A DNA stretch of 64,000 nucleotides, from NCBI RefSeq assembly GCF_050320075.1, contig NZ_CP190018.1. One strand, 5' to 3'. The position numbers were made by a program, and so were the translations under genes. Below the pieces are notes generated by a model, which was not told the DNA's origin, did no database searches, and was given only the letters and a program-made list of their open reading frames with translations. This document shows positions 6,711 to 42,012 of this stretch, piece after piece (the first letter of the stretch is position 1; each line of letters opens with the position of its first letter). Source of the stretch: Escherichia coli. Its GTDB lineage: Bacteria; Pseudomonadota; Gammaproteobacteria; Enterobacterales; Enterobacteriaceae.

Positions 6711-8182
6711 CAGATACAGCGTTATCTCCTGAAGAGCAGTTGATCGAGGATATTGCAGGGTTCACTCACGATCCGCTTGGCTATGCCCTCTATGCGTTCC
6801 CGTGGGGGGAAGAGGGGACTGAACTGGCACATGCTACCGGCCCACGTCAGTGGCAGGCTGATGCGTTCCGAGAGATACGTGATCACCTGCAGAATCCAGA
6901 GACGCGCTATCAGCCGCTTATGCTGGCACGCGCTTCTGGTCACGGTATTGGTAAATCCGCATTCATCTCAATGCTGATCAACTGGGGCATGTCCACTTGC
7001 GAGGATTGTAAGGTCGTGGTGACCGCCAACACCGACAACCAGCTACGAACGAAGACCTGGCCGGAAATTATCAAGTGGTCGAACCTTGCTATCACGAAAG
7101 ACTGGTTTACCTGTACCGCTACTGCGATGTACAGCAATGATCCTGGGCACGACAAGCGGTGGCGAGCTGACGCAATCCCCTGGTCTGAGCACAACACTGA
7201 GGCATTCGCCGGACTACACAACGAGCGCAAACGCATCATCGTGGTATTCGATGAAGCGTCGAACATTGCGGATCTGGTGTGGGAAGTTGCTGAGGGTGCG
7301 CTTACGGACGAAGACACTGAGATTATCTGGGTGGCGTTCGGAAACCCTACACGTAATACCGGGCGTTTTCGCGAATGTTTCCGCAAATACAAACACCGCT
7401 GGAAAACTGCGCAGATTGACAGCCGGACGGTGGAAGGTACTAACAAACAGCAGTTGCAGAAATGGGTTGATGACTACGGGGAAGACAGCGACTTCGTTAA
7501 AATCCGTGTGCGCGGCATATTCCCTGATGCATCTGAATTGCAGTTTATCCCTACCGGTCTTACTGATGAGGCAATGAAACGGGTGGTAACCGCTGCGCAG
7601 GTTGCACATGCTCCGGTGATAATCGGCGTTGACCCGGCATACTCCGGAGTTGATGACGCTGTGATATACCTGCGGCAGGGGCTGCACAGTAAGGTGCTGT
7701 GGACTGGCAACAAGACCACTGACGATCTGATAATGGCGAAGCGTATCGCTGACTTTGAAGACCAGTACCAGGCTGACGCAGTGTTCATCGACTTCGGTTA
7801 CGGAACTGGTCTGAAGTCAATCGGTGACGGCTGGGGTCGTACATGGCAACTTGTTCCGTTCGGTGGCGCGTCTACTGACCCGCAGATGCTCAACAAGCGT
7901 GGGGAGATGTTCAACTCATGCAAGACATGGCTGAGGCTGGGCGGGATGCTGGATGACCAGGAAACAGCAGACGACCTGTCGACGGCAGAGTACAAAGTTC
8001 GCGTGGACGGTAAAATCGTTATCGAACCGAAGGAAGATATCAAGGAGCGGCTTGGGCGTTCGCCGGGTAAAGGCGATGCGCTACTGCTGACGTTTGCGTT
8101 CCCTGTGTCTAAGCGTCTGCGAATTCCCGGGCAGCAGAACCAGCAAGGCAAGGCCATTACAGATTACGATCCCTATGCTTAA
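6707..8182 (+). CDS. Terminase large subunit
   Basis: 491 aa; P-loop-like ASGHGIGKSAF; overlaps the small-subunit stop; typical size and position. Confidence 0.8.
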   Translation: MTDTALSPEEQLIEDIAGFTHDPLGYALYAFPWGEEGTELAHATGPRQWQADAFREIRDHLQNPETRYQPLMLARASGHGIGKSAFISMLINWGMSTCEDCKVVVTANTDNQLRTKTWPEIIKWSNLAITKDWFTCTATAMYSNDPGHDKRWRADAIPWSEHNTEAFAGLHNERKRIIVVFDEASNIADLVWEVAEGALTDEDTEIIWVAFGNPTRNTGRFRECFRKYKHRWKTAQIDSRTVEGTNKQQLQKWVDDYGEDSDFVKIRVRGIFPDASELQFIPTGLTDEAMKRVVTAAQVAHAPVIIGVDPAYSGVDDAVIYLRQGLHSKVLWTGNKTTDDLIMAKRIADFEDQYQADAVFIDFGYGTGLKSIGDGWGRTWQLVPFGGASTDPQMLNKRGEMFNSCKTWLRLGGMLDDQETADDLSTAEYKVRVDGKIVIEPKEDIKERLGRSPGKGDALLLTFAFPVSKRLRIPGQQNQQGKAITDYDPYA

Positions 8183-8232
8183 TCCGTTAGCGGGGATAAT
8201 GACGGAGATATCCTCTGGTGAGGATAAAACAA

Positions 8233-8259
8233 AGCCAGCTCATCGGCTGGCTGTTTGTG
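8233..8259. terminator. Bidirectional terminator hairpin
   Basis: AGCCAGC-TCATCG-GCTGGCT flanked by T-rich runs on both strands; ends + strand terminase transcription and the minus-strand gene 8273..8644. Confidence 0.6.
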
Positions 8260-8268
8260 ACATGTCAC
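8257..8268. repeat. Perfect 12-bp palindrome GTGACATGTCAC (copy 2)
   Basis: Read directly; between the stop of minus gene 8273..8644 and the terminator hairpin. Confidence 0.9.
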
Positions 8269-8272
8269 GGTG

Positions 8273-8644
8273 TTATTGCTCGCTTAACTTCTGCTTCAGC
8301 AAGTAACCTTCAAGCATCCAGATTTTGTTTACAGCATTCTGCCGGGCAATCTTCCGACCAATTTCCGCATCAAAGTTTTCCGGGCTTGCACAGGCGCTCT
8401 CTCCGGTGACGGTGAAGCCGTTGCGCAGCACCAGAACGCAGAACGTCAGCAGAGAAAGTGATTCGTGCGGCTGGTAGTTTACCTCTCCGCCAGTATGTTT
8501 CGCTTTTATGGCTACGCCAAAGACACCATCTTCTGCTGTGAAATATGCCTCCTGAGCAATAATGCTCTCGATATGGTCTGGCGTAACGCGCGGCGCGGCT
8601 AAACCTTTAGCCTGAATTTCAGATTCAATGTCTTTGTCACTCAT
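8273..8644 (-). CDS. Hypothetical protein, opposite strand (moron-like)
   Basis: 123 aa ORF on the minus strand between terminase and the tRNA, with its own terminator; family not recognised. Confidence 0.5.
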   Translation of the reverse strand: MSDKDIESEIQAKGLAAPRVTPDHIESIIAQEAYFTAEDGVFGVAIKAKHTGGEVNYQPHESLSLLTFCVLVLRNGFTVTGESACASPENFDAEIGRKIARQNAVNKIWMLEGYLLKQKLSEQ

Positions 8645-8761
8645 AGTCTAATCTCACCTTAAAAAAATGCCCGGCGAACCGGGCGAACTGGAAGCAATGA
8701 GTTATGCCTTCCGTGGCTGTACTGGTTTACAGCATGAAGTCATCGCAATGGCGTCCTGCTG

Positions 8762-8803
8762 TAAAAAGGGCGGTGATAGTCCTTCAAGGGAAACCATCAC
8801 CGC
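8762..8803 (-). terminator. Possible terminator downstream of the phage tRNA
   Basis: Imperfect hairpin GGCGGTGAT...ATCACCGCC followed on the minus strand by CTTTTTA. Confidence 0.4.
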
Positions 8804-8847
8804 CAAGCACCTGGAACTTCTGGCATCACGGTCCTTAGGCGTGATTC

Positions 8848-8924
8848 TGGCGTGGCATGCAGGATTCGAACCTGCGACCAACCGCTTAGAAGGCGGTTGC
8901 TCTGTCCAACTGAGCTAATGCCAC
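8848..8924 (-). tRNA. tRNA-Arg (anticodon UCU, reads AGA), phage-borne
   Basis: Hand-folded cloverleaf: 7-bp acceptor stem GTGGCAT/ATGCCAC, D-stem GCTC/GAGC, anticodon stem ACCGC/GCGGT with loop CUUCUAA, T-arm GCAGG-TTCGAAT-CCTGC, encoded 3' CCA. Confidence 0.9.
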
Positions 8925-9247
8925 AACGCTGAGAGCACTTAGCCTGTTAAGTGCGCCACACTTTGTCGCAGCTCCATAAATGCTCTCATCGTTGTACCCT
9001 CGTCTCTTCCGAGGCGTCACACCGAATCGCCGGGATGGTGAATCCCCGTGCGCGGAATAAAACCGCTCGACTTGCACATTCCGGCTACCTGGTTCGTTTG
9101 CCCGAGCAAGGGAGGGTGCCCCTTAAACGTATCCAGACCGCTATCGGCGCATGTGCCATACGCCGTACTGCTCAAAATAAAAGCTCACTCCACCTGTTCA
9201 ATTTAACGACAAGCCAGTCAGGTTAATAACCGGAATGAACCATTTAC

Positions 9248-9262
9248 TTACCTGAAAGGTAA
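9248..9262. promoter_or_regulatory. Operator-like palindrome TTACCTGAAAGGTAA upstream of the portal operon
   Basis: Perfect copy of the motif, followed by TAATAA. Confidence 0.6.
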
Positions 9263-9352
9263 TAATTCGTGCGTTAAATGTCAACTACCTACGATAAATA
9301 AATCATATGTGGTTAAATTGGTAATAATTTAATTGCGTACGGAGTCATTGAT

Positions 9353-9559
9353 ATGTGCATGGGTAGCTCACCATCAGTGCCTGCAACACCAGAAGTTCAG
9401 GCAGCACCACAGGAGCAGGATGCCGCCGTTGTTGATGCCCGCGACGAAGAAACACGTCGCCGTCGCGCTGCTGCTGGTCGTAGTTCTACGCTGCTTACCG
9501 GTTCTCAGGGCGACACATCAACTGCTAATACCAGCGGTAAAACGCTGCTTGGTCAGTAA
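9353..9559 (+). CDS. Small low-complexity protein (68 aa)
   Basis: GGAG RBS; its translation initiation region (CGGAGTCATTGA + ATG) is nearly identical to that of the portal gene. Confidence 0.45.
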   Translation: MCMGSSPSVPATPEVQAAPQEQDAAVVDARDEETRRRRAAAGRSSTLLTGSQGDTSTANTSGKTLLGQ

Positions 9560-9573
9560 CCGGAGTCATTGAA

Positions 9574-11253
9574 ATGGCGGAAACAACTAAAGAGCGATTG
9601 AGCAAACAGTTCGCACAACTTGAAAGCGAGCGTCAGTCGTTCGAGCCGCACTGGCGCGAGTTGAGTGATTACATCAACCCGCGTGGTTCCCGCTTTCTGA
9701 CTTCTGAGGCCAACCGTAACGATCGGCGCAATACACACATTATTGATTCGACCGGGACTATGGCGGCGCGCACTCTCGCCAGCGGCATGATGTCAGGCAT
9801 CACAAGCCCCGCGCGTCCGTGGTTTCGCCTGGCTACGCCAGATCCTGAAATGATGGATTATGGCCCTGTTAAGTTGTGGCTTGAGGCGGTGCAGAACCGC
9901 ATGAACGATATGTTCAATAAGTCGAATCTCTATCAGTCGCTGCCGCAGTTATACGGAAGCCTCGGCACATACAGCACCGGTGCAATGGCGGTACTGGAGG
10001 ATGATGAGGACATCATTCGCACAATGCCATTCCCGATAGGCAGTTACTACCTGGCTAACTCACCTCGTGGCAGTGTTGACACCTGTTTTCGCAAGTTCTC
10101 TATGACTGTTCGTCAGCTTGTTCAGGAGTTCGGGCTAAATAACGTCAGCGAATCCGTAAAAAGCATGTGGGAAAGCGGCATCTACGAGAAGTGGATTGAC
10201 GTGATGCATTCGGTTTACCCGAACATTGACCGCGATACATCGAAGCTGGATAGCAAGAACAAGCCATTCAAATCGGTTTATTACGAGGTTGGTGGCGATA
10301 ACGACAAGTTGTTGCGTGAGTCCGGATTCGATGAGTTTCCAATTATGGCTCCGCGCTGGGAAGTTAACGGTGAAGATGTTTATGGATCATCATGCCCGGG
10401 CATGCTGGCGCTTGGACCTGTTAAGGCATTGCAGCTTCTCCAGAAGCGCAAGTCGCAGTTGATTGATAAAGCCACCAATCCGCCGATGGTTGCTCCGACT
10501 TCCCTCAAGAATCAGCGCGCCTCCCTTCTTCCTGGCGACATCACGTATATCGATCAGATTACTGGTCAGGATGGCTTCAGGCCTGCTTATCTGGTTAACC
10601 CCAGTACAGCAGATTTGGTGGCAGACATTCAGGACACTCGTCAAATCATTAACAGCGCCTACTTTGTCGATCTGTTCATGATGTTGCAGAACATCAATAC
10701 CCGCTCGATGCCTGTTGAAGCGGTGATCGAAATGAAAGAAGAAAAACTTCTGATGTTGGGGCCGGTTCTGGAGCGTCTGAACGACGAATGTCTTAATCCT
10801 CTCATTGACCGCGCTTTCTCGATGATGGTGCGTAAAAACATGCTGCCGCCACCGCCTGACGCGATGGAAGGCATGCCCCTGAAGGTCGAATACATTTCCG
10901 TCATGGCTCAGGCGCAGAAGTCTATCGGCCTGTCCAGTCTGGCGTCCACGGTTAACTTCATTGGTCAACTTGCGCAAGCGAAACCAGAAGCTCTCGACAA
11001 ACTCAACGTTGATCAGGCGATCGATGCATTCGCTGATATGTCCGGAGTGTCTCCAACCGTCATTGTTCCGCAGGAACAGGTTGAGCAGGCTCGCCAGCAA
11101 CGGGCACAGCAGCAACAGCAGCAACAAATGATGGCGATGGGGATGGCGGCGGCACAGGGGGCCAAGACGCTAAGCGAAGCTAAAACTTCGGATCCGAGTG
11201 TTTTGTCAGCTATGGCGAATGCAGTTAGTGGTCAGGGTGGGCAATCACAATGA
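9574..11253 (+). CDS. Portal protein
   Basis: 559 aa, immediately after the terminase region; size and position typical. Confidence 0.7.
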   Translation: MAETTKERLSKQFAQLESERQSFEPHWRELSDYINPRGSRFLTSEANRNDRRNTHIIDSTGTMAARTLASGMMSGITSPARPWFRLATPDPEMMDYGPVKLWLEAVQNRMNDMFNKSNLYQSLPQLYGSLGTYSTGAMAVLEDDEDIIRTMPFPIGSYYLANSPRGSVDTCFRKFSMTVRQLVQEFGLNNVSESVKSMWESGIYEKWIDVMHSVYPNIDRDTSKLDSKNKPFKSVYYEVGGDNDKLLRESGFDEFPIMAPRWEVNGEDVYGSSCPGMLALGPVKALQLLQKRKSQLIDKATNPPMVAPTSLKNQRASLLPGDITYIDQITGQDGFRPAYLVNPSTADLVADIQDTRQIINSAYFVDLFMMLQNINTRSMPVEAVIEMKEEKLLMLGPVLERLNDECLNPLIDRAFSMMVRKNMLPPPPDAMEGMPLKVEYISVMAQAQKSIGLSSLASTVNFIGQLAQAKPEALDKLNVDQAIDAFADMSGVSPTVIVPQEQVEQARQQRAQQQQQQQMMAMGMAAAQGAKTLSEAKTSDPSVLSAMANAVSGQGGQSQ

Positions 11254-26054: not shown

Positions 26055-26603
26055 TTACTTTTCTTCAGGTTTGTTGTCTTCAGATTTCTTCTTGATGCTT
26101 GGTTTTTGTCTAAGAACGAAAATACCAGCCACTGCAACAACTGTACCGATCACTGTGCCAGCTAGAACTTCATGACCTGTTAAACCTAATAATGTTGCAC
26201 AAGCTACTGTAAAAATAGTTGCACTCAGGCCAAACCACTGCCCACGTTTATCTCTATTAATAGCCCCGTCAAGTGCCTTTTCCTCCATTTTCTGGCGGTG
26301 AGCAAACTCCTTCTCCGTCAGCTGGAAGATGCGTTCGGGGGCATCAGGTAAAATATCCTGATACCCGCGAAGCAGATAGGGGGGAGGAAGCGGACCCTGA
26401 AACGCATGGTGAGCGACAACTATCTCCTGAATTTCAGGGCGATCAAGAACTCTTGTGAAGGCATCTGGGTGTTGAATGATCTCGTTACTTAGCCCTTCCT
26501 CAACTTCCTCGAACTCAGTTTCTTCGTTATCACTTGGTTGCCCAATAGATTTTTGCATATTTGTCGAAGGACATTCCTTTAGCTTCTGGTTTTCCTCTTG
26601 CAT
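26055..26603 (-). CDS. Membrane protein: acidic N-terminal soluble domain plus C-terminal TM helices (possibly DUF2335-like)
   Basis: 182 aa; hydrophobic stretch WFGLSATIFTVACATLLGLTGHEVLAGTVIGTVVAVAGIFVL near the C-terminus; start 26603 or 26558. Confidence 0.5.
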   Translation of the reverse strand: MQEENQKLKECPSTNMQKSIGQPSDNEETEFEEVEEGLSNEIIQHPDAFTRVLDRPEIQEIVVAHHAFQGPLPPPYLLRGYQDILPDAPERIFQLTEKEFAHRQKMEEKALDGAINRDKRGQWFGLSATIFTVACATLLGLTGHEVLAGTVIGTVVAVAGIFVLRQKPSIKKKSEDNKPEEK

Positions 26604-26856
26604 TTGAGTTTTTCCCTGTCACTATTGCCCATTTTCCGCCAGCAGGCGCTGCAATTTTTTTTCCGTTCTTTACTATATATTCAGCATAAACACGATTTTC
26701 TGACCGTCTGAGATCGTCTCCGACCATATTCATGTCTCTTGATATAACTTTGACGACAGAGTCTCGGTTTAAAGCCTTGGCATAGTTGGAGCCAGGAACG
26801 ATACCCAAAGGGGTGCCAGACTCTATAGCCAGCTCCTTGACATATCTTCTGCTCAT
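26530..26856 (-). CDS. Hypothetical small protein (108 aa from ATG 26856)
   Basis: GAGG RBS before MSRRYVKELA; overlaps the 5' end of the downstream membrane-protein ORF. Confidence 0.45.
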   Translation of the reverse strand: MSRRYVKELAIESGTPLGIVPGSNYAKALNRDSVVKVISRDMNMVGDDLRRSENRVYAEYIVKNGKKIAAPAGGKWAIVTGKNSNARGKPEAKGMSFDKYAKIYWATK

Positions 26857-26977
26857 ATGAACCTCAACCAATCGACTTTACCAATCGGGTAATTTTAAAC
26901 ATGAGTATAATGCTTTTAACTGCAACGAGTGTAAACAATTATTGATAATTGTAGGCACATCCCTGTGCCGCCGCCCG

Positions 26978-27664
26978 TCAGAAGAACCCTGCTTTGTCGT
27001 TGATGTACTCCGCGTGCGTCTGGATATCACGCAGGCATTTACTCACACCGACGATGTAGCAGAACATGGTGGTCAACTCCGCCGCCGCGCCCGATACGTC
27101 GTGCCCGTCGTCCTGTAACTGGTTCAGCAAATTCATCAGCAGTGAGTTCTCCGTCAGGCCGAGAACACCAGACGGCGAATGAATCAGGCTACGGTAGCCG
27201 GGCTTCAGTGGGGCGCTGTAGGTTTTGTTCTCTATCTTCATTGCCTGCATCACTGCTGATGCTGTGGCGTTGGCTACCTGGTCGGCAACCATCTTTATGC
27301 GTTCTTCCTGCGGGAGCGAGTTTTTAATGTAACTTCCGGTGCGGCGGATCTGAGGAAGAACCTCACCTGTAACCCATTTGCGAAAGCGGTAGGGGATAGT
27401 GCCTGGTGTTACTGCATCGCGGCAGCGGAGGATCAGTGTGTAGAGGCCTGACTCGTTGATAATATTGGTTTCGCCTTGACGGCCTAAGTTAAATTTAGCC
27501 CTTTCATCATCATCAAGAGATTTTATTGACATAGTGGGGTTTGTCAGTTGAAGAGCTTTAATAACGTCTTTGGCAACAAACCAAGGATTTCCATCAATAA
27601 CAATGGCTCGAATGGTTGCTTCTGATTCAAAATGAAAAACAGATGGGGTTACGTTAGCAGTCAT
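26978..27664 (-). CDS. Bro-N domain antirepressor-like protein (start trimmed to ATG 27664)
   Basis: N-terminal FHFESEATIRAIVIDGNPWFVAKDVIKAL...NIINESGLYTLILRCRDA resembles Bro-N; SD AAGGTGA before ATG 27664. Confidence 0.6.
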   Translation of the reverse strand: MTANVTPSVFHFESEATIRAIVIDGNPWFVAKDVIKALQLTNPTMSIKSLDDDERAKFNLGRQGETNIINESGLYTLILRCRDAVTPGTIPYRFRKWVTGEVLPQIRRTGSYIKNSLPQEERIKMVADQVANATASAVMQAMKIENKTYSAPLKPGYRSLIHSPSGVLGLTENSLLMNLLNQLQDDGHDVSGAAAELTTMFCYIVGVSKCLRDIQTHAEYINDKAGFF

Positions 27665-27932
27665 AGTGATCACCTTTGTAGTTAGGTTAATCACCACTAC
27701 CGACGCCAATCGGTTGGTGGTGAACTGTGCAGGGTTGGCGTAACCGGCTACAAAGGACCCGGCGCACCTTTCGGTGCCCCCACACAGCCCACCATAGAAT
27801 AGGTGCGCTTTACACATAAAAAAAACCGCTTATGCGGCATATGTGCCTCTGTAGTAACTCGGGACGCCAATCCCGGCACTGGATTTTGCCAGTGCCCGAT
27901 TACTATGGCACAAGAGGAGTGCGTTGTAAATT

Positions 27933-27947
27933 TACCGCAAAGGTAAA
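27933..27947. promoter_or_regulatory. Operator-like palindrome TTACCGCAAAGGTAA upstream of the Bro-N gene
   Basis: Perfect copy, intergenic. Confidence 0.6.
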
Positions 27948-27977
27948 TATAAGCACTCCACTTGGCAATTGCAAACC

Positions 27978-28235
27978 TTATCTGGTTTGTTTTCGTAATT
28001 GTTCGGCACAATAGTCGAGATGTGTTTGCAGATCCCGCATAGACATCTGTGAGCTGGTGACGTAGTTAATCAGTGCAGTCAGTTCGGCAAGTGGGCCATC
28101 GACATTAAATCCATCCTTATCGAGATCCCGGAGTAATTTCATCAAGTGCGATCCCTCCACCAGTGACCTGACGCCTCCCGGCGTGTGAATCCTTTCGGTA
28201 AATCCGTCTTCCAGTGGATAGTGATACTGCTGCAT
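27978..28235 (-). CDS. Small protein paralogous to the C-terminal domain of the adjacent Bro-N protein
   Basis: HTPGGVRSLVEGSHLMKLLRDLDKDGFNVDGPLAELTALINYV...MRDLQTHLDY aligns with Bro-N C-terminus HSPSGVLGLTENSLLMNLLNQLQDDGHDVSGAAAELTTMFCYI...LRDIQTHAEY. Confidence 0.5.
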   Translation of the reverse strand: MQQYHYPLEDGFTERIHTPGGVRSLVEGSHLMKLLRDLDKDGFNVDGPLAELTALINYVTSSQMSMRDLQTHLDYCAEQLRKQTR

Positions 28236-28312
28236 CTTAATCTTCTCCATGCAATAACTGTATATTTATACAGTATCAAATAATTTGTTTGCTATCCAGC
28301 ACGTTTTGCAAA

Positions 28313-28327
28313 TTACCTGAAAGGTAA
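28313..28327. promoter_or_regulatory. Operator-like palindrome TTACCTGAAAGGTAA in the divergent region before the tailspike gene
   Basis: Perfect copy; identical to the copy at 9248. Confidence 0.6.
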
Positions 28328-28431
28328 TATCTATTCATATTCACAGTCTTTCTATCCATATATGGTTTTTTGGGTAATAGAATAACCAGATATGCGGCGC
28401 AACGGGTGCTGCGACTATCTGGAGATTTAAC

Positions 28432-31275
28432 ATGACGGTCTCAACCGAAGTTGACCACAACGAATACACAGGTAACGGCGTTACGACATCGTTTCCGTAT
28501 ACTTTTCGAATTTTCAGAAAATCAGACCTGGTTGTTCAGGTGTCTGACCTGAACGGGAACGTAACAGAATTGGTTCTGGATACCGGTTATACGGTAACTG
28601 GGGCGGGCACTTATAGTGGCGGTTCAGTGGTTCTGCCGTCTCCGCTTGCTGCTGGCTGGCGAATTACGATAGATCGTGTGCTTGATGTAGTGCAGGAGAC
28701 AGACCTCCGCAATCAGGGAAAGTTTTTCCCCGAAGTGCATGAAGATGCCTTTGACTACCTGACGATGCTGATCCAGCAATGTTTTGGGTGGTTCAGACGT
28801 GCATTGATGAAGCCCTCTCTGCTTGCAAAATATTACGATGCAAAGCAAAACAGAATTTCTAACCTTGCAGATCCATCACTTGAGCAGGACGCTGTAAATA
28901 ATCGCTCAATGCGTAATTATGTCGATGCTGCAATCGCCGGAGTTGTTGGTGGTTTTGGTTGGTTTATTCAGTATGGTTCTGGGGCAGTATATCGCACCTT
29001 CCAGGACAAGATGCGAGATGAAATAAATGTTCATGATTATGGTGCTATAGGTGATGGAAATTATCACCCGCTTTCTGAACGTTATTCATCGTTGGCTGCT
29101 GCGCAGCAACAATATCCATTTGCTACTTCCCTTGGTCAGTCTATTGACTGGGCTGCAATACAGGCAGCGATCAATGCCTCACAAGGCAGAAAGGTAAAAT
29201 TATTAGCAAAAACATACATTTCTACTGATGGATTCACTGGCGTTGATGGTCTTTGTTTAATTGGTGAAGGTGCTACCCCTTTTTACCTTAACTTTCAGGA
29301 CATTCCATACACCAACAATGGTGGTACTGACATTCTTTTCTATGGTACAGGCCAAAAGAACAGAAGCATTTATGGTATTTCGGATATGCAGCCATCCGGT
29401 GGTGTGAGGACAGATCCTGATTTAGGCGTGACTCATGCATTAACCAATATGACGAATGGAGACGCCAGCACTTCGGCGGCTGCAACCCCTCGAGCAGTAA
29501 GCGCTGGCTTATACCTTGAGCATTGCAAAGGCTGGCAAATTGAGGGAATCCGATTTGCTCCATATTTTAACGGGGTCGAATCATATACAGACCAGACTAA
29601 CTTAGGGCTGGCTGATGAATGGGATATCGGAATTCTCATCAATAGTTCTTATGATGGTGTAATGCGCGATGTTCGCGCGGTTGGGCACTGGCGAGTTGCT
29701 GGCCTGGCTGTGTTTGCAGGCGAAAATCCTTTCAACACAGGCGCGTCATCTTCATGTGAACGAAACAGATTTTTTTCCTGTCAGTTTAATGGAAAGTCTG
29801 GCGTTCTTATTCGCGGCGGGGATGCCTACCGGTGTACAGCAGTAACAGCTGACACTGTCGAAATTCCATGGCACGATTCAAACCCGTTCCGGCATACCGG
29901 TGGGGTATTTCTTGGGGCCTTTGGTGGCGCAACCTCTGCAAGCTATACCTATACCAGCGCAACGGTTACCGGTGATAAGCTGACGCTCCACGGAGTAAGC
30001 CCTAACCCTTTATCGAATGGTATGACAACATCTTCAGGGGTGTATACCGGTAGAAGTTATGGGTTCCAGGGTACGCAATTCTTTGGTTGTTACTTTGGCG
30101 GCCTTGAGCATCAGACTAACCGAGTGGCTACAGACCCGGCGCTTACCTCACCATTCCCTACGTCGTCAAAACCTGTCGAAATTTCAGGTGTTCCGGCAGG
30201 AAATATCAGGTTCTATGGTTGTACGCACATGACCCGGGAAGACTGTGTGTGGATGATCCATAACGCCTCAAATATCTACGACTTCGGAGGCTATTTTGAG
30301 GCCAAGCGAGCGATCACTGCTACTGGCGGCGGCTCGCGCATGGTAGCCATCGGTAATTGGCCTGATTACACCCCGACTGCAGAATCACCATATCCGTTTG
30401 GTACGGTCAGTAACATAAATATGTTCGGTTCGCAGGCTCTTAATTTCGTTGATATGTACCCTGTAGTTGCCCGTTCTACAGGTGTAACGCGCTTTACCTC
30501 CGGGATGTGGGATTGTAAGACCCTCTATAGCTCCGAGGCATTTCAGGATCTTGCTGACACCAACAACTATGTAATAAAGGGTTTACGAAACGAAAGCATA
30601 AGGTTCGAGGACGGAGCCGGCGGCCATCTTATGACCATGCAGAATATTGGCAATCTCCTGCTTGGTAAGCGCGCCAGATTTAACACCTCAACAGAGGATC
30701 GTTATCAGTTCTATCGACTCGATGGAACAACCATTTTCTTATCCCTCGATGGCACGATGTCCACGCCAGTAATGACTCTGGATGGAAACTTTGTCCCTGC
30801 AGTTGCCAATACAAGGTTGGTCGGAACTGCGGCCAAGCCCTTCTCGGGAGGTAATACCCAGACAGCTTATAACATCACTTCTGACCGGAACTACAAAACT
30901 GACTTTGGTGAAATTCCTGACGCCGTTCTGGATGCATGGGAATTGGTGCAGTATTCACAATATAAACTCAGGGATGCAGTTGCGTTGAAGGGGGAAGGCG
31001 CCAGATTACATGTCGGTGTTGTTGCACAGCAGGTGAAAGAGGCATTTGAATCAGTAGGGGTCGATCCTTTTGCATATGGCGTACTGTGCTACGACGAATG
31101 GTCTGGTCAGGAAGAAGTTATTGAGGACGGTGTCATTACGCAGCAAAAAGTGGAAGCAGGGAAGCGTTACAGTGTGCGCTACGAAGAGGCATATGCAATA
31201 GAGTCCGCCTTGCTTCGGAGAACTCATACCAGATTGGAGCAGCGCTTATCTTCTCTTGAAGAAAAATCAAAATAG
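28432..31275 (+). CDS. Tailspike/tail fibre protein with C-terminal intramolecular chaperone (peptidase S74-like) domain
   Basis: 947 aa; GGAG RBS; N-terminal virion-binding-like region; C-terminal region containing SDRNYK and GVVAQQVKEAFESVG resembles autocleaving chaperone domains. Confidence 0.7.
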   Translation: MTVSTEVDHNEYTGNGVTTSFPYTFRIFRKSDLVVQVSDLNGNVTELVLDTGYTVTGAGTYSGGSVVLPSPLAAGWRITIDRVLDVVQETDLRNQGKFFPEVHEDAFDYLTMLIQQCFGWFRRALMKPSLLAKYYDAKQNRISNLADPSLEQDAVNNRSMRNYVDAAIAGVVGGFGWFIQYGSGAVYRTFQDKMRDEINVHDYGAIGDGNYHPLSERYSSLAAAQQQYPFATSLGQSIDWAAIQAAINASQGRKVKLLAKTYISTDGFTGVDGLCLIGEGATPFYLNFQDIPYTNNGGTDILFYGTGQKNRSIYGISDMQPSGGVRTDPDLGVTHALTNMTNGDASTSAAATPRAVSAGLYLEHCKGWQIEGIRFAPYFNGVESYTDQTNLGLADEWDIGILINSSYDGVMRDVRAVGHWRVAGLAVFAGENPFNTGASSSCERNRFFSCQFNGKSGVLIRGGDAYRCTAVTADTVEIPWHDSNPFRHTGGVFLGAFGGATSASYTYTSATVTGDKLTLHGVSPNPLSNGMTTSSGVYTGRSYGFQGTQFFGCYFGGLEHQTNRVATDPALTSPFPTSSKPVEISGVPAGNIRFYGCTHMTREDCVWMIHNASNIYDFGGYFEAKRAITATGGGSRMVAIGNWPDYTPTAESPYPFGTVSNINMFGSQALNFVDMYPVVARSTGVTRFTSGMWDCKTLYSSEAFQDLADTNNYVIKGLRNESIRFEDGAGGHLMTMQNIGNLLLGKRARFNTSTEDRYQFYRLDGTTIFLSLDGTMSTPVMTLDGNFVPAVANTRLVGTAAKPFSGGNTQTAYNITSDRNYKTDFGEIPDAVLDAWELVQYSQYKLRDAVALKGEGARLHVGVVAQQVKEAFESVGVDPFAYGVLCYDEWSGQEEVIEDGVITQQKVEAGKRYSVRYEEAYAIESALLRRTHTRLEQRLSSLEEKSK

Positions 31276-32066: not shown

Positions 32067-32685
32067 ACAATTCCAGCGAGCTGCTGATATTAGTGAGGCG
32101 CTGACCGCCCGATGGTTCTCGCATATAACTTCTGCGATGAAAGAGTTTGGTATTAGCAAAGCAGAAGATCAGGCTATGTTTATTGCTCAGGTCGGGCATG
32201 AGTCTGGTGGCTTCACCAGGTTGCAGGAGAATTTCAATTACAGCGTCACCGGACTGGCTAACTTCGTTCGTGCCGGTCGTCTCACTCAGGGACAGGCCAA
32301 CGCACTGGGTCGCCGTGCTGGTGAACCGCCATTACCACTCGAGCGCCAGCGCGCGATCGCAAATCTGGTGTACAGCAAACGCATGGGTAACAATGCTCCT
32401 GGCGATGGATGGAACTACCGTGGGCGCGGACTTATCCAGATTACCGGTTTGAATAACTATCGTGACTGTGGAAACGGCCTTAATGCTGACCTGCTGGAGA
32501 GTCCTGAACTGCTGGCGCAGGACGAATACGCGGCTCGTAGCGCGGCGTGGTTCTTCTCCAGCAAAGGCTGCATGAAGTATACCGGAGATATTGCACGTGT
32601 AACTCTGATTATCAATGGTGGCCGGAACGGCATCGACGACCGGCGCGCGCGGTACATCACTGCCAGTAAGGTGCTGGCTGTATGA
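32056..32685 (+). CDS. Endolysin, glycoside hydrolase family 19 (chitinase-like lysozyme)
   Basis: 209 aa; [12 protein letters not shown] and [13 protein letters not shown] segments resemble the GH19 catalytic region; GAGG RBS. Confidence 0.7.
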
Positions 32686-33164
32686 TCTTGGCATTCGCAA
32701 AAGCATACTGGAAACAGTTGGTTATCATGGCGATGATTGCTGTTCTGGTCATATCAGGAGTTGTAGTCTGGAATGCACACGGCAGTCGTCAGTACGATGC
32801 CGGGTATGCGCAGGCGGAAGAAGACCGCAAAGACGAAGAAGACAAATTTCGTCAGTACTACGAACAGGAGAAAGTGACCAATGAACGTGAAGCGCAGCAG
32901 AGGATCGATCAGGCGCGCAGTGATGCTCTTGATGCTGCCGCTCGCGCTGGCAGGTTGCAGCAACAGCTCGTTGCCATCCGTGAGCAGCTCAGGCAGTATA
33001 ACGCCATTGTCGGCGCTGGGACGTCAGCCGCAGACACCGGAGTTTTGCTTGCCGACGTGCTCAGCAAATCTCTCGAGAGAAACAGACAACTGGCAGAGTA
33101 TGCTGACCGGGCAGCCGAAGCAGGAAGAGTCTGCGAAAAACAGTATGACACCCTGACCAGATAG
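32682..33164 (+). CDS. Rz-like inner-membrane spanin (i-spanin)
   Basis: 160 aa; N-terminal TM helix then coiled coil; start overlaps the endolysin stop. Confidence 0.6.
32923..33156 (+). CDS. Rz1-like outer-membrane lipoprotein spanin (o-spanin), embedded in Rz in the +1 frame
   Basis: [12 protein letters not shown] lipobox followed by a Pro/Ser-rich short protein, wholly inside the Rz gene. Confidence 0.6.
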   Translation: MLLMLPLALAGCSNSSLPSVSSSGSITPLSALGRQPQTPEFCLPTCSANLSRETDNWQSMLTGQPKQEESAKNSMTP

Positions 33165-33314
33165 CATGGCATTTTCATGGCACTGATTTCCTGTGACGGT
33201 ATATAAAACGGTACGAGGAAAATTTGGTTTTGGAAAAGTGTTATCACTCAATTGGTTATGGTGTCCGTAAATAATTGAGTGGGAATGATTTTGATCCCTG
33301 CACTATGAATGAAC

Positions 33315-33345
33315 AAAACCCTCTGTTACTACAGAGGGTTTTTTA
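33315..33345. terminator. Bidirectional rho-independent terminator (host yfgI 3' end; limit of prophage transcription)
   Basis: CCCTCTGT-TACT-ACAGAGGG flanked by A-run and T-run. Confidence 0.7.
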
Positions 33346-33382
33346 TCTTCAAGAATTATAGGCTTGAAGTTACTTACATCGA

Positions 33383-33922
33383 TTAATTAAACCAGCTGTC
33401 CGATTTGTTCTCTTCTGCTTTGCCCACGCTTTTCATCAGATCGCGACCGCCCTCAGTCATATTCCTGTTTGCGTCAGCTTCAGATTGCACCACATCGGTT
33501 TGCGCAGCTTTGTGCTTCAGTTCCTGATCGATAAATTCGTTTTCTCGCTTAACGCGGGCTTCTTCTTTCGCCAGCGCCAGTTTTTGTTTCTGAATCTCTA
33601 AGCTGCGTAGCTCATCTTCATAACTTTGATCGCGTTTTTTGTCCGCAGTGGCTTCGGCGTCCAGTTTATCCTGACGAGCTTTCTTATTTGCCGCTGCCGT
33701 TGCCGCTCTTTTGTTAGCGGCGGCCTGGGCGTTTGCGCGACGTTGCTTCTCTTGCTGGATTTCCCTGTTGCGCTCCGCGACCCATTCGTCATGCTGCCTT
33801 TGCTCTTCATTTTTACCTTGCTGTTCCGCTTCTGCGACAGCAGAGAGTTGATCCTGCAATGATGAGGCGATAGCCGGATAGCTTAAGGAGGTTAAGATGG
33901 CGCAAAGAAAAACTTTCTTCAT
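33383..33922 (-). CDS. yfgI: YfgI, secreted protein
   Basis: 179 aa with signal peptide and coiled-coil; matches E. coli YfgI in size and context. Confidence 0.75.
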   Translation of the reverse strand: MKKVFLCAILTSLSYPAIASSLQDQLSAVAEAEQQGKNEEQRQHDEWVAERNREIQQEKQRRANAQAAANKRAATAAANKKARQDKLDAEATADKKRDQSYEDELRSLEIQKQKLALAKEEARVKRENEFIDQELKHKAAQTDVVQSEADANRNMTEGGRDLMKSVGKAEENKSDSWFN

Positions 33923-33937
33923 GACTCCTCCTGATCA

Positions 33938-34456
33938 TTAGCTCTTTTCAGGACATTTCGTATTTGGCTGAATACGCGTTTCGTTATACGTCGTGGTAAT
34001 AACAACGGCTAAACCTGTCGTAAACTGGCACTCTTTACCCACCTGGGTAGAGGTATACACTTTGGTGCCTTCCTTATACGTTAGAGAAACACCTTCCACT
34101 AAGGTTTTATCATTCACCATAGAACCCGCTGCCGCGCCAACAGCTCCGCCGCCAACTGCACCTGCCGTCGTTCCGGAATTGCTGCCAGACCCCACGTTGT
34201 GGCCGATTACACCGCCAGCGACTGCACCAATAAGCGCGCCGAAGGCTTGTGCGTTCCGTTTATTTTGGGAGTTGTCTACGGCAACTTTTGCGGGAAGAAT
34301 GGAAATAATATTAACGGTTTTAGTTTCTTGTTTGGTATTCAGTTGATCGGTTTGATAAACATCGGCGGCATGATCATCAGCATTTGACTGGCATCCTGCC
34401 AGAGTGAATGACGCTAACATTGCCACAGGCAGAAGACATTTTTTAAATTTCATCAC
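33938..34456 (-). CDS. yfgH: YfgH, glycine-zipper outer-membrane lipoprotein
   Basis: 172 aa; lipobox LAGC; Gly-rich GAVAGGVIGHNVGSG segment. Confidence 0.75.
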   Translation of the reverse strand: MMKFKKCLLPVAMLASFTLAGCQSNADDHAADVYQTDQLNTKQETKTVNIISILPAKVAVDNSQNKRNAQAFGALIGAVAGGVIGHNVGSGSNSGTTAGAVGGGAVGAAAGSMVNDKTLVEGVSLTYKEGTKVYTSTQVGKECQFTTGLAVVITTTYNETRIQPNTKCPEKS

Positions 34457-37591: not shown

Positions 37592-41204
<3,613 letters not shown>

Positions 41205-41331
41205 TACCACTTTTACTCCGTTTTATTCACGGGACACTGCCTGGATATTATGGCGAGCAATATTGGCAGATGTCCAACTATGCCAGAAAAGGGGGAAAAA
41301 AACTGCTGGAGCTTGCGATTTACAGGTGAAT

Positions 41332-41358
41332 TGAAAAACGCCAGCGGCAGAGCTGGCG
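41332..41358 (-). terminator. Rho-independent terminator after purN
   Basis: CGCCAGC-GGCAGA-GCTGGCG followed on the minus strand by TTTTT. Confidence 0.6.
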
Positions 41359-41374
41359 CTTTAACTACGGGGCA

Positions 41375-42012
41375 TTACTCGTCGGCAGCGTAGCCCTGCG
41401 GCGGCAGACGTTGACCATCCAGCCACGCGGCGTTTTCGTGCATTTTCAGACGACCATCGGCAAACCAGCTAATCACCAGTGGATAAATAGCGTGTTCCTG
41501 GGTTTGCACGCGGGCGGTGATGTCATCCTCCGTATCACCAGCAAATACCGGGACTTTCGCCTGTAAAATAACCGGGCCACCGTCCAGTTCATCGGTGACG
41601 AAATGCACCGATGTACCGTGCTCTTCATCGCCATTTTCCAGCGCCTGACGATGGGTGTGTAATCCGGGATATTTCGGCAGCAGAGAAGGGTGAATGTTCA
41701 GCAAACGCCCGGCATAGTGGGAGACAATCGCCGGGCTGAGAATGCGCATAAAACCAGCCAGTACGACCACATCGGGTGCGTACATGTCGATTTCATGAAT
41801 CAACTCCCGGTCATAGGCTTCACGACTGTCAAACGCGCTGGCGATGAGCGTATGCGTTGCAATACCCGCCTGGCGGGCGCGTTCAAGGCCGAACGCGTCG
41901 GCCTTATTGCTGAAAACTGCCCGTACGGTGCCTTTAATTTTATTGGTTTTGCAGGCGTCAATAATTGCCTGCAAATTACTTCCGTTGCCGGAAATAAGCA
42001 CCACAATATTCA

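What the first reader, a model, noticed from the sequence alone, without database searches (positions are those of the whole stretch)
33165..33345. Prophage-host junction (attR region) next to yfgI
Phage genes end at 33164 and the host yfgI terminator lies at 33315-33345, so the attachment-site core must lie in about 150 bp. In K-12 gene order, yfgI neighbours guaA, which places the prophage in the yfgI-guaA interval.
Basis: inference. Interest (0 to 1): 0.35.

Follow-up and report, generated by a model that had tools for sequence, protein, structure and literature searches.

The report
Known phiV10-type prophage attR junction
This is the right-hand junction of a phiV10/epsilon15-type prophage integrated at its published 17-bp attachment site in the 3' end of the E. 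coli guaA gene, so it is real, precisely mappable and ordinary.

Summary
The finding is correct and already explained. Window 33165-33345 is the attR junction of a 39,184-bp phiV10/epsilon15-like (Uetakevirus) prophage.

The attachment core is the 17-bp sequence ATTGAGTGGGAATGATT at 33274-33290. The same 17 bp occur once each in:
- the left junction (attL), 5.9 kb left of the window start, recovered from the matching genome NZ_CP123240.1;
- the empty site of K-12, where it covers the last four codons and the stop of guaA plus 2 bp;
- the attP of phiV10 and epsilon15.

It is the published core of phiV10, epsilon15 and vB_EcoP_ZX5 (PMC9782041).

Phage DNA does not stop at the last gene (Rz, 33164). 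It continues as the attP P arm through 33273, with an integrase arm-type site and an IHF-like site. Host DNA starts at 33291. The hairpin at 33315-33342 is the terminator shared by the convergent genes guaA and yfgI, not yfgI's alone.

guaA is rebuilt intact at attL, where the phage supplies a look-alike terminator. About 18% of 5,425 complete E. coli genomes have this site split exactly at the core.

Novelty: already known. Interest: low.

The parts
32682..33164 (+). Rz-like i-spanin (DUF2514), the last prophage gene. The Rz1 o-spanin frame is embedded at 32881-33156.
   Evidence: ORF list. Pfam DUF2514, E = 3.5e-42. phiV10 and epsilon15 annotate the homologous positions as Rz/Rz1 spanins.
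33165..33273 (.). P arm of attP, retained at attR. This is phage DNA, not host.
   Evidence: Phage genomes match the window continuously up to 33290. Ungapped identity of the 115 bp left of the core (which includes the last 6 bases of Rz): 92/115 to phiV10 attP, against 33/115 to K-12 attB.
33193..33202 (+). Arm-type integrase binding site GTGACGGTAT.
   Evidence: Same position as the 'integrase' protein_bind feature annotated in epsilon15 (L003 3694-3703). Repeated in the P' arm at attL, directly at L001 7018-7027 and inverted at 7048-7056. Occurs once in the whole window. Binding was not tested.
33242..33254 (+). IHF-like site TATCACTCAATTG. It has one mismatch to the consensus WATCAANNNNTTR.
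   Evidence: Pattern scan: about 0.04 matches expected per 181 bp from the window-wide frequency. It coincides with the IHF feature annotated in epsilon15 at L003 3743-3765. This is a consensus match only.
33245..33281 (.). Imperfect inverted repeat CACTCAATTGGTTATGG / CCGTAAATAATTGAGTG. Its right arm runs into the left half of the core.
   Evidence: the repeat finder on phiV10 attP (I1, 82% complementary). The same sequence is read in the window. Function unknown; it may be extra core-type or accessory binding sites.
33274..33290 (.). attR core ATTGAGTGGGAATGATT. It is a 17-bp identity between phage and host and contains the displaced guaA codons I-E-W-E-stop plus TT.
   Evidence: Exact single copies in the window, attL (L001 6877-6893), K-12 attB (L002 5957-5973), and epsilon15 and phiV10 attP (L003/L004 3775-3791). 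The flanks diverge immediately on both sides. Identical to the published core (PMC9782041).
33291..33382 (.). Host guaA-yfgI intergenic DNA (the B' side of attB).
   Evidence: 316/317 identity (core + 300 bp) to the empty site of strain C4. Collinear with K-12 apart from a 2-bp indel allele.
33315..33345 (.). Bidirectional intrinsic terminator of the convergent genes guaA (+) and yfgI (-). In the lysogen it lies downstream of the phage lysis cassette.
   Evidence: Terminator scan on the + strand, 12-pair stem plus T run. Both strands fold into the same hairpin: -20.1 and -21.1 kcal/mol, z about -5.5, with a U-rich tail on either strand. Present unchanged in the K-12 empty site between guaA and yfgI.
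33383..33922 (-). yfgI (DUF5384 family), the first host gene to the right of the prophage.
   Evidence: ORF. RefSeq annotation under the match. K-12 gene order.

Best explanation
Window 33165-33345 is attR, the right junction of a 39.2-kb phiV10/epsilon15-type (Uetakevirus) prophage.

How it arose (inferred from the four-way att comparison):
- A phage tyrosine integrase with an N-terminal arm-binding domain recombined the phage attP with the bacterial attB.
- Both sites share the 17-bp core ATTGAGTGGGAATGATT, which covers the last four codons and the stop codon of guaA.
- Strand exchange within this core left one copy at each end of the prophage.

The two junctions:
- attL consists of guaA, the core, the P' arm, a phage terminator and int. 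It restores an unchanged guaA reading frame.
- attR consists of the lysis genes, the P arm, the core at 33274-33290, the original guaA/yfgI bidirectional terminator and yfgI.

The P arm (33165-33273) carries an arm-type Int site (GTGACGGTAT) and an IHF-like bend site. Together with their partners in the P' arm, these would assemble the intasome for excision. This step is inferred from lambda-type systems and from the epsilon15 annotation; it was not tested here.
For: - The core occurs exactly once in each of the window, attL, K-12 attB, phiV10 attP and epsilon15 attP.
- Flank swap: attR-left matches attP-left (92/115) and not attB-left (33/115). attL-left matches attB-left (114/115). attL-right matches attP-right (208/215).
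- attR-right matches an empty site of the same allele, 316/317.
- In about 960 of 5,425 complete E. coli genomes the attB query splits into pieces 1-159 and 143-301. The overlap is exactly the 17-bp core.
- In non-lysogens the attL query stops at base 134, which is the end of the core.
- A tyrosine integrase lies 190 bp right of attL. It has Arm-DNA-bind_3, Phage_int_M and Phage_integrase domains.
- The prophage measures 39,184 bp core to core, against 39,104 bp for phiV10 and 39,672 bp for epsilon15. It is collinear with these phages at 95-98% identity over the shared modules.
- guaA at attL has 525 aa and ends ...PPATIEWE*, the same as in K-12.
[quoted passage not shown] The epsilon15 integrase cluster targets the guaA 3' flank (PMC8138268).
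Against: - Nothing in the sequence contradicts it.
- Not shown here: that this particular prophage is still excision-competent; where within the 17 bp the strands are cut; and that Int and IHF bind the marked sites. Those sites are consensus or annotation matches only.
- The left junction comes from a public genome identical to the window over the 3,214-bp overlap, not from the window itself.
Confidence: 0.97

Rival explanations
1. The boundary is at the end of the last phage gene (33164/33165). On this reading the whole of 33165-33345 is host intergenic DNA, with the core elsewhere, for example at the terminator.
For: None beyond the absence of an ORF in 33165-33382.
Against: - 33165-33273 is absent from the K-12 and C4 empty sites and is present in free phage genomes.
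- The K-12 guaA-yfgI intergenic region is only 92 bp.
- The terminator is on the host-only side.
Confidence: 0.01
2. The element is a non-phage genomic island (CMGI-3-like) or a phage satellite that uses the same guaA 3' target, rather than a Uetakevirus prophage.
For: Integrases of the epsilon15 cluster also mobilise non-phage islands into the guaA 3' flank (PMC8138268).
Against: - The DNA left of attR is a full holin/holin/GH19 endolysin/Rz-Rz1 cassette, a tailspike and a structural module, collinear with phiV10-like phages.
- The core-to-core length equals a complete phage genome.
Confidence: 0.01
3. attR is a fossil: the prophage is defective and the junction no longer takes part in recombination.
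For: Inducibility was not tested. Mosaic regions differ from the reference phages, since only about 55-58% of the 24.8-kb query is covered at megablast level.
Against: - Both cores are perfect.
- The arm-type sites are conserved.
- The integrase ORF is full length with all domains.
- The prophage length is that of a complete genome.
- A close relative (ZX5) is spontaneously induced from this site.
Confidence: 0.12

Closest known systems
[quoted passage not shown]
   Same: - Identical 17-bp core ATTGAGTGGGAATGATT.
- Same target (last codons of guaA).
- Same orientation: lysis cassette, attP, then int.
- Same arm-type repeat GTGACGGTAT.
- Same phage-borne terminator in the P' arm.
- Same integrase architecture.
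   Different: - Only allelic differences. The P arm is 92/115 identical to phiV10 and 82/115 to epsilon15.
- The tailspike and accessory genes differ.
- There is no O-antigen-modifying gene between the tailspike and the lysis cassette.
Lambda-type heterobivalent tyrosine-integrase att sites (core plus arm-type sites plus IHF bends)
   Same: - A short core of phage-host identity.
- Flanking AT-rich arms with repeated arm-type sites on both sides.
- An IHF-like site.
- An integrase with a separate arm-binding domain.
   Different: - The integrase belongs to the P4/SXT-like group, not lambda Int's own subfamily (note).
- The core lies inside the 3' end of a protein-coding gene, which the phage reconstitutes.
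- The cleavage positions are not mapped.
Phages and islands that integrate into the 3' ends of tRNA or essential genes and carry a replacement 3' end (P4, Sf6, SXT/prfC)
   Same: The target gene's 3' end is duplicated in attP, so the gene stays intact after integration.
   Different: The target is guaA, a protein-coding gene. Only 15 nt of the coding sequence including the stop codon are duplicated.

Membership tests
Uetakevirus (phiV10/epsilon15) guaA-targeting att site | Core sequence ATTGAGTGGGAATGATT at the junction | tested here: met
   Exact match at window 33274-33290. Published core in PMC9782041.
Uetakevirus (phiV10/epsilon15) guaA-targeting att site | The same core as a direct repeat at the other prophage end, abutting guaA | tested here: met
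   L001 6877-6893 in NZ_CP123240.1, which is identical to the window over the 3,214-bp overlap. The core forms the end of the guaA CDS.
Uetakevirus (phiV10/epsilon15) guaA-targeting att site | An uninterrupted attB with the core at the 3' end of guaA in genomes without the prophage | tested here: met
   K-12 and strain C4. 4,463 of 5,425 genomes carry the intact site.
Uetakevirus (phiV10/epsilon15) guaA-targeting att site | attP of the free phage equals attR-left + core + attL-right | tested here: met
   Against phiV10 attP: 92/115 identity on the left, 17/17 in the core and 208/215 on the right.
Uetakevirus (phiV10/epsilon15) guaA-targeting att site | Adjacent P4/SXT-type tyrosine integrase with an arm-binding domain | tested here: met
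   CDS at L001 7084-8334. Pfam Arm-DNA-bind_3, Phage_int_M and Phage_integrase.
Uetakevirus (phiV10/epsilon15) guaA-targeting att site | Prophage genome collinear with Uetakevirus genomes | tested here: met
   95-98% identity over 55-58% of a 24.8-kb query, in the same order, ending at attP. Core-to-core length 39,184 bp.
Lambda-type intasome site | Int binds the arm-type sites and IHF bends the arms | not testable with these tools
   Only sequence repeats and a consensus match are available: GTGACGGTAT in three copies across P and P', and TATCACTCAATTG. epsilon15 annotates the same positions.
Lambda-type intasome site | Defined 6-8 bp overlap region with staggered cleavage inside the core | not testable with these tools
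   My reading of the core: CATT/AATG inverted tetramers flank GAGTGGG in attB. This is a guess from the sequence only.

The most novel reading that the evidence does not exclude
Integration swaps terminators between host and phage.
- guaA loses its own bidirectional terminator to the phage lysis operon. At attL it receives a phage-borne look-alike with the identical stem CCCTCTG...CAGAGGG, preceded by a hairpin made of the core and an inverted copy of it.
- This suggests that the P' arm is an ancient captured copy of a host guaA 3' region, kept under selection to insulate int from guaA read-through and to preserve guaA mRNA 3'-end formation.
- If so, lysogeny could subtly change guaA and yfgI expression in the ~18% of E. 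coli that carry an element here.
Probability: 0.3. Interest if true: 0.25.

Novelty: already known. Interest (0 to 1): 0.08.

Why it matters
It matters little beyond correct annotation.
- It fixes the prophage's right boundary to the base: phage DNA runs through 33273, the shared core is 33274-33290, and host DNA starts at 33291.
- It shows that guaA is not damaged.
- It identifies the element as a Uetakevirus prophage at its canonical, published site.
- The one useful by-product is a population figure. About 18% of complete E. coli genomes have this attB split exactly at the core, so the guaA 3' end is a heavily used integration hotspot.

Tried and rejected
- Looking for attL inside the window: not possible. 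The window starts inside the prophage early region. attL lies at window-equivalent -5910 and was taken from NZ_CP123240.1.
- Rfam scan of 32500-34000 at E <= 1: only two sub-threshold chance hits. His_leader scored 21.9 bits against a gathering score of 49, driven by the terminator hairpin; the other was adapt33_3. I found no known RNA family at the junction.
- Promoter scan of 32600-34000: none found.
- The 2-bp difference right of the core (TTGATCCC in the window, TGACCC in K-12) could have been a footprint of integration. I rejected this because the same allele occurs in the empty site of strain C4.
- The original epsilon15 genome paper (PMC2698709) is not held in the library. The primary description of attP is therefore cited second-hand through PMC9782041 and PMC8138268.
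- The strict IHF consensus (WATCAANNNNTTR, or WATCAR...) gives no hit in the region. Only the relaxed pattern matches.

Full report
**Observation**

The region was read directly and the ORFs listed.
- The last phage-type ORF is a DUF2514/Rz spanin at 32682-33164 (Pfam E = 3.5e-42). An Rz1 frame is embedded at 32881-33156.
- Upstream of it lie a GH19 endolysin, two holins and a 947-aa tailspike.
- yfgI lies at 33383-33922 on the minus strand, followed by yfgH, yfgG and pdeF, in K-12 order.
- A strong hairpin with a T run lies at 33315-33342/5.

**Identity of the element**

- The lysis cassette and the DNA to its right match phiV10, typing phages 9 and 10, vB_EcoP_ZX5, phiv142-3 and HEMP4 at about 93%, and epsilon15 at 82%.
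- In every free-phage genome the match stops at query base 1291, which is window 33290.
- The 24.8 kb to the left are collinear with the same phages at 95-98% identity over 55-58% of the length. The rest is mosaic.
- The genus is Uetakevirus according to the records' taxonomy.

**The left end**

- The window is base-for-base identical to E. coli YZLc1-3 (NZ_CP123240.1). This was checked over 801 bp at the junction and over a 3,214-bp overlap at the window start.
- In that genome, guaB and guaA are followed by a tyrosine integrase and phage early genes that run into window position 1.
- attL is therefore outside the window, at window-equivalent position -5910. The prophage measures 39,184 bp from core to core, compared with 39,104 bp for phiV10 and 39,672 bp for epsilon15.

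**The core**

A four-way comparison of attR (window), attL (L001), attB (K-12 and strain C4) and attP (phiV10, epsilon15) shows a single block common to all. It is ATTGAGTGGGAATGATT, present once in each sequence. In the window it is 33274-33290.

The flanks swap exactly as site-specific recombination predicts:

| Comparison | Ungapped identity |
|---|---|
| attR-left vs phiV10 attP-left | 92/115 |
| attR-left vs attB-left | 33/115 |
| attL-left vs attB-left | 114/115 |
| attL-right vs attP-right | 208/215 |

- K-12 differs from the window by a 2-bp indel just right of the core. This is a host allele, because the empty site of strain C4 matches the window 316/317 over the core plus 300 bp.
- The core encodes the last four guaA codons and the stop (I-E-W-E-*) plus TT.
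- guaA at attL remains 525 aa with the same C-terminus.

**Population check**

| Query | Result |
|---|---|
| 301-bp K-12 attB | Intact in 4,463 of 5,425 complete E. coli genomes |
| 301-bp K-12 attB | About 960 genomes split into pieces 1-159 and 143-301; the overlap is exactly the core |
| guaA-attL-int | Complete in 568 genomes; ends at the last core base in non-lysogens |
| Rz-attR-yfgI | Complete in 362 genomes |

An occupied site with a diverged Rz (strain UMNK88) has the same holin/holin/GH19/DUF2514 cassette next to yfgI and the same core.

**Anatomy of the arms**

- The integrase has Arm-DNA-bind_3, Phage_int_M and catalytic domains.
- The decamer GTGACGGTAT occurs once in the window, at 33193-33202. 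epsilon15 annotates an integrase site at the same position.
- Its partners lie in the P' arm at attL, one direct and one inverted.
- A near-consensus IHF site, TATCACTCAATTG, sits at 33242-33254 under an annotated epsilon15 IHF feature.
- attP also holds inverted partial copies of the core on each side. The left pair is kept at attR (33245-33261 / 33265-33281).
- Binding and cleavage positions are inferred, not shown.

**The terminator**

- The 33315-33342 hairpin is present unchanged in the empty site, between the convergent genes guaA and yfgI.
- It folds equally well on both strands with U-rich tails: -20.1 and -21.1 kcal/mol, z about -5.5.
- It is therefore the shared bidirectional terminator, not yfgI's alone.
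- In the lysogen it follows the phage lysis operon.
- guaA at attL instead uses a phage-borne terminator at L001 6938-6961. Its stem, CCCTCTG/CAGAGGG, is the same as the host's.

**Comparison with what is known**

- PMC9782041 reports the same 17-bp sequence as the attP/attB core of vB_EcoP_ZX5, verified by PCR and sequencing of attB, attL and attR. [quoted passage not shown]
- PMC3293862 reports a phiV10-related prophage inserted in guaA.
- PMC8138268 places epsilon15-cluster integrases as guaA 3'-flank specialists.

Every testable membership criterion is met.

**Verdict**

The finding is real. The feature is already known, and interest is low.

Noticed in passing
window 33274-33290; E. coli genome collection: About 18% (roughly 960 of 5,425) of complete E. 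coli genomes have the guaA attB split exactly at the 17-bp core. Only 568 show a megablast-level match to this integrase junction and 362 to this Rz junction. Roughly 400 occupied sites therefore carry more diverged elements.
   Followed up: partly
L001 6938-6961 (attL, outside the window) vs window 33315-33342: The phage P' arm carries its own terminator, whose stem (CCCTCTG...CAGAGGG) is identical to that of the host guaA/yfgI terminator. After integration guaA uses the phage copy, and the host copy ends up behind the lysis genes.
   Followed up: partly
window 33291-33299: There is a host allele polymorphism immediately right of the core: TTGATCCC in the window and strain C4, TGACCC in K-12 and UMNK88 (a 2-bp indel). 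It occurs in both empty and occupied sites, so it is not an integration scar.
   Followed up: yes
phiV10 attP L004 3746-3824; window 33245-33281: Partial inverted copies of the core flank it in attP: CACTCAAT on the left and TCATTCCTATTCA on the right. At attL the right-hand pair would form a hairpin directly at the guaA stop codon. Function unknown.
   Followed up: no
window 8848-8924 (-): There is a tRNA-Arg(TCT) gene inside the prophage. A tRNA-Arg is also annotated in the related O157 typing phages 9 and 10.
   Followed up: no
window 26055-31275: The tailspike (28432-31275, 947 aa) ends in a Peptidase_S74 intramolecular-chaperone domain. It is followed directly by the holin genes. There is no O-antigen acetylase or polymerase gene between the tailspike and the lysis cassette, unlike phiV10 (oac) and epsilon15. 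Upstream on the minus strand are Bro-N (antirepressor-like) and DUF2335 proteins.
   Followed up: partly
phage records JQ011317.1 / NC_019445.1 (TL-2011b), 39976-41377: The deposited 'phage' record matches the window through attR into host DNA and annotates a DUF5384 (yfgI) protein. The record therefore includes bacterial flanking sequence beyond the true phage end.
   Followed up: no
L005 (E. coli UMNK88) 8035-11054: In this other lysogen the neighbouring host gene pdeF (yfgF) is interrupted by an IS1A element.
   Followed up: no
window 33241-33347 (+): There is a weak Rfam His_leader hit (21.9 bits against a gathering score of 49, E = 0.77) over the core and terminator. I judged it a chance match driven by the terminator hairpin.
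   Followed up: yes
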